Source of the DNA: Lingula anatina
Taxonomy: Eukaryota > Animalia > Brachiopoda
Reading direction: 5' to 3'
Length of the DNA stretch: 64,000 bases
Assembly (NCBI GenBank): GCA_051362555.1
Contig: CM120640.1
Coordinates: 7,440,001-7,504,000 of the forward strand
Below, piece by piece: positions 11,662 to 13,654 of this stretch. Every line of letters starts with the position of its first letter. Position 1 is the stretch's first letter. A program made the position numbers and the translations under genes. The notes under the pieces were generated by a model that saw only the letters and a program-made list of their open reading frames with translations, ran no database searches and was not told where the DNA came from.

Positions 11662-11777
11662 AACCTCCATGAGGAGGTCTTGAAAAATTAGTCTATAGAC
11701 TCATTGTATTGTTCCTCTCCACGGAAATCTTTAGTAAAAGGCGAAAGATTTATTCGTGGATGAAGAGAAACCAGAGT
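11662..11777 (-). ncRNA. RNU5: U5 snRNA copy 3 (intact but separated from its promoter by the LINE insertion)
   Basis: Identical to copy 2; only 9 bp of native upstream sequence remain. Confidence 0.93.
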
Positions 11778-11786
11778 GAAGACCTC

Positions 11787-13129
11787 TGTAGTATAAGTTT
11801 GCAACGGCAAAGCCGTTGCGGGAAAGTTACGAGGTCTCATGCATCGAGATGCAAGAGCCTCTTTCAATCCCCGAGTTCTTGTATATTGTCTTCTACCTCT
11901 ATTGCTGTTGCACGTCTGTCCGTGGTGGTATTTTGGGTGGCTTGGATTTTTTCTTTTTTCTTTTTTTTTTTTCTTTCTCCTTCCTCTTACGCTGGCCGCC
12001 CCTCCAGCTTGTGTATTTTTTTCCAGATGATTCTTTTCTTTCTTTTTTTTCCTTGTTTCCGCTGTGATTATACCAATTCTTTCACCTTGTCTCCGATCGT
12101 CGGGTGACCAGATTTTTTCCTTAATTTTGAATTGGTGTTGCCCTTTTCAGGGCCAGTGGTATTTTCTCCGGTCGTCGGGAGACCGAAGCCGCCAGGTTTT
12201 TCGTGCACGATCTGTATCATTATTTATATAAGTCAAGGGTAGTATTTTTGCCTGGTTTGCTTAGTATTATGTTTTTCAGCTTTAGTTCTTTAAATAGGAG
12301 GTTATTTTCAAACCTGCTGATTGTTTTTGTGCCCAGAAAAAATAGTCTGCTTGATATATATTCAATGTTGGCCAGCTCGTGCAGAGTTGTAATTCGGGTA
12401 CTTGTAGGAAGTTTGAGTGCTATGCGTAGCGCTCTATTTTGAATTTTTTGGAGGTCGTTGAGCCTTGTTTTTTTGGTAGCCGCTAGTATGACCGCACCGT
12501 ATTCGAGTATGGGTCGAATGAATGATTTGTATAATTTTAGGAGGCAGGCACTCGAAGCCCCCCAGTTTGTACCTCTCAGTCTGATAAGAAGGCCAGTTCT
12601 TTTCCTGGCTCTTTTCACTATATTGTCGACGTGTTTTTTAAATGATAGTTTCCTATCAAATGTGATTCCTAGCAGTGTTACTTCCTCACATGTTTCTAAA
12701 CGGTCACCAAAAAGTGTGAGGTTGAGCTTAGGTTGTTGATTTGATTTTGAAAAGATGATTAATTGTGTTTTTTTGGTGTTTAGTTTAATCCGCCATAGAG
12801 AGCACCATAGTTCGAGATCCTTTATCACACCCGTCAGTCTAGTTTCTATGTTTTTGACATTTTTGCATGATGTCCACATGCCCAAATCGTCTGCAAATTG
12901 AGAGACCTCGGTGTTGTATCTTGGGTTTATTGGTAGGTCGTTCACATATATTAGGAATAGCAACGGGCTGATTACAGACCCCTGAGGCGTGCCAGCATTA
13001 AGACTTACATATTCGGATGCCTCGCCTTTGATTCTGACCTTGATCTTTCTGTCTTTCAAAAAAGATGACAGCAAGCGGACAATCTTAACTGGCAGGTTAC
13101 TATGTGCTAATTTGTACCTTAACCCAGCG
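11787..13129 (-). mobile_element. 5'-truncated non-LTR retrotransposon (Jockey/I-group LINE) inserted at the U5 start site
   Basis: 1343 bp flanked by exact 14-bp TSD AGAGTGAAGACCTC (11773-11786 and 13130-13143); RT ORF plus 433-bp 3' UTR; no poly(A) tail at the junction. Confidence 0.93.
12220..13129 (-). pseudogene. Reverse transcriptase C-terminal fragment (uninterrupted frame, N-terminally truncated)
   Basis: GTPQGSVISPLLF, QFADD, WRIKLN, LGITFD, YKSFIRPILEYG, LQKIQNRALR motifs; begins just after the KAFD-VWH region; no endonuclease or RNase H domain. Confidence 0.9.
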
Positions 13130-13654
13130 AGAGTGAAGACCTCACTGCCCTTACCGGTTATATACTTCATTTTAGTAGCATTTGAAATGGGAGTGACTTT
13201 GCATAATTATTCTAAAAAAACAGCTTCATATATTTTGTGCTATTGAGATAATACTTGAGACATTTTTAATTTCTCTATAGCAATAACATGTAATATTTTA
13301 GTTTGGGAATAACAAACAATACCATCTTTGGTTCTTTTGAAAAGCTCGTTCTTTTTAATGCCATGTGCCGACGGGTAAGGCGCGCAGTCGGTCGCCAATA
13401 AAAGGGGTCATGCATGTAGGTGTTGCACGTTTATATTTAACATCTAAAACACTCCGACGCTCTCAGTGCCAACAGTAAACATGTTTTGACATTTGAAATT
13501 CACCTGAGATATTGTTGGCGGATGCCGTACTTGGTCAAACGCTTGGTGATCATCATGCAAAATGATATAAATTCCAGTTATAGCAACAGTTTAGTTCGGA
13601 CATGATCATGGCCAAATGGAAAGTGTGTTGAAAAGTAAAATAATGTAAAAATAA

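What the first reader, a model, noticed from the sequence alone, without database searches (positions are those of the whole stretch)
11773..13143. LINE inserted precisely at the U5 transcription start, capturing the snRNA promoter
Seen: the 14-bp TSD (minus strand GAGGTCTTC-ACTCT) spans about -9 to +5 of U5. The element is co-oriented with U5, so the PSE/TATA promoter would initiate at ACUCU and read straight into the retroelement, while an intact promoterless U5 is left downstream. The RT frame is uninterrupted and the flanks match the array consensus, so the insertion is recent. Established: sequence-specific elements target multicopy RNA genes (R1/R2 rDNA; Keno and Utopia U2; Dada U1/U6/tRNA), but this RT looks Jockey/I-like. 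Inference: a candidate U5-start-site-specific LINE family that uses the array as a safe haven and promoter donor. One insertion cannot establish specificity.
Basis: partly seen in the sequence, partly recalled or inferred. Interest (0 to 1): 0.82.

Follow-up and report, generated by a model that had tools for sequence, protein, structure and literature searches.

The report
LINE lineage that targets transcription starts
A young, shortened jumping gene sits across the inferred start of a U5 splicing-RNA gene, but its sister copies are flanked by other DNA and a related family has landed again and again at the inferred starts of all four core histone genes, always facing forward, so this lineage likely aims at transcription start sites in general and would thereby borrow host promoters.

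Summary
Observation confirmed. A 1343-bp, 5'-truncated LINE with an open RT frame and an exact 14-bp duplication (-9 to +5 of the inferred U5 start) interrupts one unit of a 27-copy SRP-U5 array, facing the same way as U5.

U5 specificity is not supported. In two DNA runs, all 5 contigs that run on beyond the element's 3' end enter non-U5 DNA.

Related LINEs (one family at 43% RT identity, plus two other elements) interrupt another animal's histone repeat. Of 12 mapped 3' junctions, 11 lie 1-12 bp before the cap motif of H2A, H2B, H3 or H4, all co-oriented (P about 1e-24 against uniform insertion).

Best reading: an AP-endonuclease LINE lineage without RNase H that targets polymerase II start sites by position. 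Start sites are inferred, and no promoter-driven chimeric RNA was shown. For the window's own family the evidence is one insertion plus suggestive flanks.

Nine paper searches found no description. Earlier unchecked notes of this scan report similar start-site targeting on other DNA (mussel, shark-like genomes).

The parts
11787..13129 (-). 5'-truncated LINE, 1343 bp, single copy in the window
12220..13128 (-). open ORF2 fragment (302 aa: later RT motifs and thumb) with its natural stop; no RNase H follows
11787..11876 (-). 3' end: two predicted hairpin domains (-37.3 kcal/mol, no shuffle control), a motif shared with relatives, and a short TAC-repeat tail
13130..13143 (-). upstream copy of the target-site duplication, -9 to +5 of the inferred U5 start (A at 13134)
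11773..11786 (-). downstream copy of the target-site duplication
13158..13164 (-). TATA box at -30 of the inferred U5 start, now upstream of the LINE
13184..13196 (-). PSE-like element at -62 (consensus recalled)
11662..11779 (-). intact U5 snRNA gene cut off from its promoter
13653..13952 (-). SRP (7SL) RNA gene of the interrupted unit
8634..46164 (-). tandem array of ~1339-bp units, each with one SRP RNA and one U5 gene (27 + 27 Rfam hits)

Best explanation
This is a recent, 5'-truncated copy of an AP-endonuclease LINE whose lineage likely chooses targets by position at RNA polymerase II transcription start sites rather than by the U5 sequence. SHOWN: the duplication spans -9 to +5 of the U5 ACTCT and the element faces the gene's way; sister copies have non-U5 flanks; related elements sit at the cap motifs of four different histone genes and flip with H2A. 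FROM ESTABLISHED KNOWLEDGE (target-primed reverse transcription): this geometry means the first nick is on the gene's template strand 1-12 bp upstream of +1 and the second on the coding strand at about -1 to +14. INFERRED: the ORF1/ORF2 particle is tethered to, or exploits, the initiation complex and cuts at the upstream edge of the melted start region (about -9 to +2 in the polymerase II open complex, recalled), which would explain both the narrow window and the fixed orientation. INFERRED: a full-length copy then begins within about 8 nt of the host +1 and would be transcribed from the host promoter. Such insertions would survive mainly in redundant arrays (snRNA, histone), where losing one copy costs little. 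The window's copy cannot make a full ORF2; at most it would give a chimeric RNA that an intact copy could mobilise.
For: (1) Window geometry. (2) Five overlapping-fetched host contigs in three bacterial bins carry a 4613-bp H4-H3-H2A-H2B repeat (27 H4 matches) with 15 tabulated insertions: 13 of family A, 1 of a distant LINE B, 1 of a 739-bp element C. Of 12 with a 3' junction, 11 start at -12 to -1 of the only CATT within 80 nt of the ATG (H4 4, H2B 5, H2A 1, H3 1) and 1 at -70. Two with only a 5' junction end at +1 and +6. One was not placed by script and by eye ends at about -3 of H4. All face the same way as their gene. P = 9e-25 against uniform insertion; 3e-23 counting two other junctions as misses; 1e-13 counting distinct sites only; 3e-12 if any CATT were the target (window chosen after seeing the data). 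Family-A copies are 84-99.5% alike over their longest matches, with different 5' junctions, so they are separate events. (3) Seven copies that keep or nearly keep the 5' end join the host at -1 to +8; one has intact 625-aa and 935-aa ORFs. (4) Family A and the window's RT group together: SH-aLRT 96 in a quick 79-row tree; in a 30-row tree 70.5/80 for the narrow group and 98.4/97 for the wider group that also holds family B. (5) In the window's own species, 2 of 3 readable single-contig flanks carry an initiator-like YCANT with its A at +8 and +11 from the junction; the U5 site has it at +10 (read by eye; background 4% for +8 to +11 and 12% for +2 to +13). (6) 5 of 11 metagenome relatives have YCANT at +2 to +13 (P = 0.003, junctions set by eye); L013 ends 71 nt before the ATG of a co-oriented integrase-like gene.
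Against: The decisive data come from a relative at only 42-43% RT identity in one other host species, not from this family. Those contigs were probably binned because arrays have odd coverage, so the genome-wide share of start-site insertions is unknown. All start sites are inferred from motifs. One of 3 readable sister flanks and 6 of 11 metagenome flanks lack the motif, and the 30-nt flanks could not be mapped to genes because no genome is held. Two further junctions in the histone contigs are not at a cap: a reversed family-A piece in the spacer and an unidentified stretch in the H3 leader. Close relatives form clusters of 322-1482 members on many large contigs, which is hard to square with strict start-site insertion. 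Support for a narrow clade is moderate and no named reference families were in the trees. RNA reads showed almost nothing (3 reads under 95% alike). No tether or nick was tested.
Confidence: 0.66

Rival explanations
1. The window's family inserts with little or no site preference, and this copy hit the U5 start by chance and survived because the array is redundant. Start-site targeting is a property of the histone-array relative only.
For: One insertion in the window. Sister copies have unrelated flanks, one without an initiator-like motif. Relatives reach hundreds of copies on many contigs. The site was picked by a reader scanning for oddities.
Against: p = 0.0045 for this position and orientation within the unit. 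The offsets match those of the histone-array insertions. Contig depths hint at a low-copy family (element 313, flanks 32-72 in X3; the tool warns that depth is not copy number), which makes a lucky hit less likely. 2 of 3 sister flanks show the motif at the same spacing.
Confidence: 0.2
2. The endonuclease recognises a short initiator-like DNA sequence (YCANT) in accessible, nucleosome-free DNA, with no tether to the transcription machinery.
For: CATT, CACT or CAGT recurs just past the 3' junctions. A sequence read on one strand would also fix orientation. Known Tx1 and R1 specificity lies in the endonuclease (PMC4494074, passage).
Against: The histone unit has 55 CATT sites but 11 of 12 junctions use the 4 at gene starts (P = 3e-12). 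The distance from nick to motif varies from 1 to 12 bp, and the five targets share little else. A distant family B and element C use the same H2B site. Accessibility was not modelled, so this rival is not excluded.
Confidence: 0.1
3. A U5-sequence-specific LINE family, like Keno or Utopia for U2.
For: Precise insertion in a multicopy snRNA array. The read-laying tool can drop records that resemble human DNA, and U5 is conserved, so U5-flanked contigs may be under-counted.
Against: 5 of 5 continuing contigs have non-U5 flanks and 0 of 16 laid contigs cover the U5 side. Only 1 of 27 units is hit. No Rfam hit in 30 loci of relatives.
Confidence: 0.03
4. Assembly chimera.
For: The junction was not seen in two other samples' contigs.
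Against: Exact target duplication, natural tail, clean truncation in frame with relatives. A private insertion is expected to be missing from other individuals.
Confidence: 0.01

Closest known systems
TRE5-A of Dictyostelium (non-LTR, AP endonuclease) and yeast Ty3 / DGLT-A (LTR); PMC5006619, passages read
   Same: Target chosen by position relative to a transcription unit. TRE5-A is an APE-RT non-LTR element whose ORF1 is reported to bind TFIIIB subunits in vitro; Ty3 inserts 1-4 bp upstream of start sites.
   Different: Those target polymerase III (tRNA) genes, and TRE5 lands about 50 bp upstream and spares the gene. Here the targets are polymerase II genes (U5, histones), the duplication covers the start, and the gene copy loses its promoter. 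No tether is shown here.
Keno (Tx1 clade, U2), Utopia (RLE, U2) and R1/R2 (rDNA); PMC4640811 abstract, introduction and start of results read; PMC4494074 passages
   Same: Live in multicopy RNA-gene arrays; R2 is transcribed from its host unit.
   Different: They use one fixed sequence in one gene type. Here sister copies have other flanks and relatives hit four unrelated histone starts. PMC4640811 places most target-specific families in the early-branched, Tx1 and R1 groups; Utopia has a restriction-like endonuclease.
Nimb / Ingi / I-group LINEs; PMC4245944 and PMC10294476, passages read
   Same: ORF1/ORF2 layout, duplications of 10-15 bp peaking at 12-13 bp (Nimb-2_DR); Nimb and Ingi are the I-superfamily clades reported in molluscs.
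   Different: No RNase H was found in this lineage, whereas I, Ingi and Nimb are recalled to carry one. The passages read mention no start-site targeting. Clade placement was not testable.
Drosophila I element and P element; PMC10018349, passages read
   Same: New insertions favour promoters, and selection later removes them from single-copy genes.
   Different: I shows only 1.74-fold promoter enrichment, about 150 bp upstream. P is a DNA transposon clustered on both sides of the start. Neither is described with a 12-bp, one-orientation window.

Membership tests
Sequence-specific snRNA-targeting elements (Keno, Utopia type) | Most copies flanked by the same site of one snRNA gene | tested here: not met
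   5 of 5 continuing contigs have non-U5 flanks; the tool may drop some U5-bearing records
Utopia / R2-group | Restriction-like endonuclease, no AP endonuclease | tested here: not met
   Full-length relatives are APE + RT, 905-935 aa
Keno / Tx1 clade | RT groups with Tx1 and L1 | not testable with these tools
   No named Tx1 reference was available; P0001 matches human L1 ORF2p only at E 2e-21 over the RT core
Nimb / I group | ORF1 plus ORF2 with APE and RT | tested here: met
   Relatives only: L043 has 625-aa and 935-aa ORFs; L050 ORF1 has a weak zinc-knuckle hit under the Pfam cut-off
Nimb / I group | Target duplication of 10-15 bp | tested here: met
   13-14 bp in the window; mostly 7-15 bp, one of 24 bp, in the histone array (PMC4245944)
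Nimb / I group | RNase H after RT (feature recalled) | tested here: not met
   No RNase H Pfam hit in P0001, L043, L059 or L001; the window's frame stops where P0001 ends
Nimb, Ingi or Jockey clade | RT phylogeny with reference elements | not testable with these tools
   Trees hold unnamed sequences only; the classification paper was not held
Jockey clade | APE + RT without RNase H | tested here: met
   necessary but not sufficient (feature recalled)
Position-specific elements (TRE5-A, Ty3) | Fixed position and orientation relative to a transcription start across unrelated target sequences | tested here: inconclusive
   Met for the histone-array relatives (11 of 12); for the window's family one insertion and 2 of 3 suggestive flanks
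Position-specific elements (TRE5-A, Ty3) | Targets are polymerase III genes | tested here: not met
   Targets seen are U5 and histone genes (polymerase II, established knowledge); the SRP gene in the same unit is not hit
Position-specific elements (TRE5-A, Ty3) | Protein tether to an initiation factor | not testable with these tools
   Needs experiment

The most novel reading that the evidence does not exclude
A widespread invertebrate LINE lineage reads the polymerase II initiation site itself. It nicks the template strand at the upstream edge of the open promoter, inserts facing forward so that its first base lands at the host +1, and uses host snRNA, histone and other core promoters in place of its own: a polymerase II counterpart of Ty3/TRE5-A with near-nucleotide precision.
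Probability: 0.42. Interest if true: 0.86.

Novelty: new variant of a known kind. Interest (0 to 1): 0.7.

Why it matters
Known site-specific LINEs read one DNA sequence (R1, R2, Keno, Utopia) or dock on polymerase III machinery (TRE5-A). A LINE that finds polymerase II starts to within about 12 bp and in one orientation would be a third strategy. It solves the promoter-loss problem of retrotransposition, makes snRNA and histone arrays its reservoir, and would be a direct source of promoter swaps and gene knock-outs in invertebrate genomes. It gives a testable handle on how a retrotransposon endonuclease meets the initiation complex, and intact two-ORF copies exist for assays. The U5 insertion alone is a minor, dead-on-arrival copy; its value is as a pointer to the lineage.

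Tried and rejected
No genome is held for the window, so no genome-wide junction list could be made. No RNA holder was listed for the stretch; this says nothing on expression. RNA reads over U5 itself were not examined, so the start site is unmeasured. The X3 loose-end row at 11786 is a mixed consensus of two contigs (agreement 0.63) and was dropped before the 2-of-3 flank count. Viral contigs: 62 pattern matches, no relative. Rfam on 30 loci of relatives: no hit; 20 of the 40 metagenome loci were scanned. Further host contigs sought in 401 + 401 bacterial bins with PF14529 gave, besides the known histone contigs, only elements far from this RT (best hits 27-32% identity) and were not used, except as outgroups. 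L041's 3' end is broken by a tRNA-like insertion, read by eye, so it is uninformative. The ESM Atlas gave no answer. The careful tree did not finish; the quick tree is cited. A TATA anchor as the general rule was considered: it fits U5 (duplication starts 21-22 nt after the first T), but by eye the histone promoters have no canonical TATA at -30, and their junctions follow the cap motif. Paper searches found no U5-, histone- or polymerase II start-targeting LINE; they cover open-access full text only, no supplements were read, and Repbase reports are not covered.

Full report
1. Observation. The window holds a tandem array from 8634 to 46164 of about 1339-bp units, each with an SRP RNA gene and a U5 gene on the minus strand (27 and 27 Rfam hits). 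One unit is interrupted by 1343 bp (11787-13129) between two exact copies of a 14-mer (11773-11786 and 13130-13143). The insert is on the minus strand, like U5. It carries an open 302-codon RT fragment (RVT_1, E 1.6e-13), a 3' UTR with two predicted hairpin domains and a short TAC-repeat tail. Taking the A of ACTCT as +1, the duplication runs from -9 to +5, a TATA box lies at -30 and a PSE-like stretch at -62. That +1 is inferred from the TATA spacing and from recalled snRNA 5' ends; Rfam's model starts two bases earlier. The promoter and the stranded U5 match the array majority, so the insertion is recent. Earlier notes of this scan call the genome the brachiopod Lingula; I did not test that.

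2. What kind of element. The best of 414 longer relatives are 905-930 aa proteins with AP endonuclease and RT domains. The closest full-length one, P0001, is 61% identical and ends where the window's frame ends. No RNase H was found in four full-length ORF2s scanned. A relative with both ORFs has a 625-aa ORF1 overlapping ORF2 by four bases, and a second copy's ORF1 has a weak zinc-knuckle hit. Duplication length and layout resemble Nimb-2_DR (PMC4245944, passages), and Nimb and Ingi are the I-superfamily clades reported in molluscs (PMC10294476, passages). The lack of RNase H is, from recall, Jockey-like.

3. Is it U5-specific? The element's 3' end with 28 bp of U5-side flank was laid on two DNA runs and two RNA runs of the same species label. 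Sixteen contigs were laid (5 and 11) and none covers the U5 side. Five run on past the element's end (1 in X2, 4 in X3), all into other DNA. The tool may drop records that resemble human DNA, and contigs with very short overlaps may be missed, so other U5-linked copies are not excluded. Strict U5 specificity is excluded, because most copies seen lie elsewhere. Three flanks are readable from single contigs. Two carry an initiator-like YCANT with its A at +8 and +11 from the junction, against +10 at U5; one does not. The background chance is 4% for +8 to +11 and 12% for +2 to +13. The motif was chosen after the fact, so this is suggestive only. RNA gave 3 reads, all under 95% alike, in about 6% of each run: no evidence of a chimeric transcript, from animals that may not carry this insertion.

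4. Relatives in a histone array. A scan of genome contigs found 10 loci. Seven lie on animal contigs binned into three bacterial assemblies. Five such contigs were fetched whole; they are arrays of a 4613-bp H4-H3-H2A-H2B unit with 27 H4 matches. Their spacers and genes match at about 98-100%, so I count them as one host species. Each histone gene has exactly one CATT in the 80 nt before its ATG, 33-47 nt upstream, matching the recalled histone cap-site motif; I take its A as +1. Fifteen insertions were tabulated: 13 of family A (42-43% RT identity to the window), one full-length LINE B (26%), and one 739-bp element C. Twelve have a 3' junction: H4 -12 (four times), H2B -5 (three times), H2B -2, H2B -1, H2A -11, H3 -6, and one outlier at H2B -70. 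Two more, cut by contig ends, have 5' junctions at +1 and +6 of H2B. The last was not placed by script and by eye joins at about -3 of H4. All face their gene's way, and the H2A copy is reversed along with H2A. Two other junctions are not at a cap: a reversed family-A fragment in the spacer and an unidentified stretch in the H3 leader. Against uniform insertion, 11 of 12 gives P = 9e-25, 11 of 14 gives 3e-23, and 6 of 7 distinct sites gives 1e-13. Against a null of any of the 55 CATT sites, P = 3e-12. Selection would be expected to favour the spacer, not gene starts (inference). Seven copies that keep or nearly keep their 5' end join the host at -1 to +8, which puts the host start at the element's first bases.

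5. How close is the relative? A quick 79-row tree puts the window's RT and family A in one group at SH-aLRT 96. A 30-row tree over a longer region gives 70.5/80 for that group and 98.4/97 for a wider one that includes family B. Rows were chosen by similarity, and roots are for drawing or on a distant LINE. They are kin, not sisters. Among metagenome relatives nearer to the window, 5 of 11 with a junction set by eye have YCANT at +2 to +13 (P = 0.003), and L013 ends 71 nt before the ATG of a co-oriented integrase-like gene. Against this, 6 of 11 lack the motif, and some relatives have 322-1482 cluster members spread over many contigs. None of 30 loci scanned has an Rfam RNA gene.

6. Mechanism. 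By the standard model of target-primed reverse transcription, a co-oriented insert whose duplication starts at -12 to -1 was primed from a nick on the gene's template strand just upstream of +1. That is about the upstream edge of the DNA melted in the polymerase II open complex (about -9 to +2; recalled, no call). I favour tethering to, or use of, the initiation complex (0.66 for start-site targeting by this family). Rivals are a chance hit by an unspecific family (0.2), recognition of an initiator-like sequence in open chromatin (0.1), U5 specificity (0.03) and artefact (0.01). Promoter borrowing follows from the geometry but is untested. The window's copy lacks ORF1, the endonuclease and the first RT motifs, so it cannot move on its own.

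7. Relation to what is known. PMC4640811 (abstract, introduction and start of results read) assigns most target-specific families to the early-branched, Tx1 and R1 groups, with rRNA, spliced-leader, tRNA, transposon, microsatellite, telomere and U2 targets. PMC4494074 (passages) describes Keno in U2 and R2's reliance on host transcription. PMC5006619 (passages) describes position-specific TRE5-A and Ty3 at polymerase III genes, the closest working analogy. PMC10018349 (passages) finds only a 1.74-fold promoter preference for the fly I element. PMC11481361 (passages) shows nothing on start-site targeting. Nine searches found no LINE aimed at U5, histone or polymerase II starts; subscription journals, Repbase reports and supplements were not seen and could hold such a description. 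I had formed this reading before consulting earlier scan notes. Those notes (unchecked) report similar behaviour on other DNA: a TATA-anchored LINE in a mussel, Keno at histone, U1 and U5 starts, and LINEs at U1, U2 and retrozyme starts. The mussel note's spacing (23 nt after TATA) fits U5 within 1-2 nt but not the TATA-less histone promoters. They are leads, not support. Sequence look-ups for the window's element and family A found no look-alike in the scan.

8. Verdict. Real feature; U5 specificity rejected; polymerase II start-site targeting is well supported for a relative and likely for this family. New variant of a known kind, interest 0.7.

Noticed in passing
window 9617-45953: The SRP RNA copies vary far more (20 distinct of 27; mean 4.5 differences per 300 nt) than the U5 copies (24 of 25 identical), and 14 of 35 variable sites in 16 units fall in the 300-nt SRP gene.
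   Followed up: partly
window 8634-46164: A tandem unit that pairs a polymerase III gene (SRP RNA) with a polymerase II gene (U5); linkage not compared with the literature.
   Followed up: no
window 22518-23701: One array unit lacks about 153 bp of spacer.
   Followed up: no
L059 30-5701 region (G003:C5 15427-20701): A second, distant full-length LINE (family B, 26-28% identity) sits at the H2B cap; its own 5' end resembles the host cap sequence and ORF1 starts about 60 nt in.
   Followed up: partly
L054 15177-15915 (G002:C3): A 739-bp non-coding element (C) at the H2B cap, probably the 3' end of a third family.
   Followed up: partly
L053 near 3990 (G001:C2 38991) and L054 near 7753: Two 5' junctions carry error-ridden copies of the target or of the H2B 5' region, suggesting template jumps onto target DNA or histone mRNA.
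   Followed up: no
window 11787-11876; L001-L004, L006, L008, L012, L017: A 3'-UTR motif and hairpin layout shared across relatives at about 42-54% RT identity, a candidate RT recognition signal.
   Followed up: partly
L042-L063: Animal histone-array contigs of 12-55 kb are included in three bacterial genome bins.
   Followed up: partly
L061-L066 (G002:C2): An 83-kb host-like contig with a dense, virus-like gene block (BTB-like, kinase-like and thymidine-kinase-like frames, by eye) and three short matches to family A's 3' end.
   Followed up: no
window 55072-55851: A 259-codon open frame on the minus strand with no Pfam family above cut-off, probably an exon.
   Followed up: no
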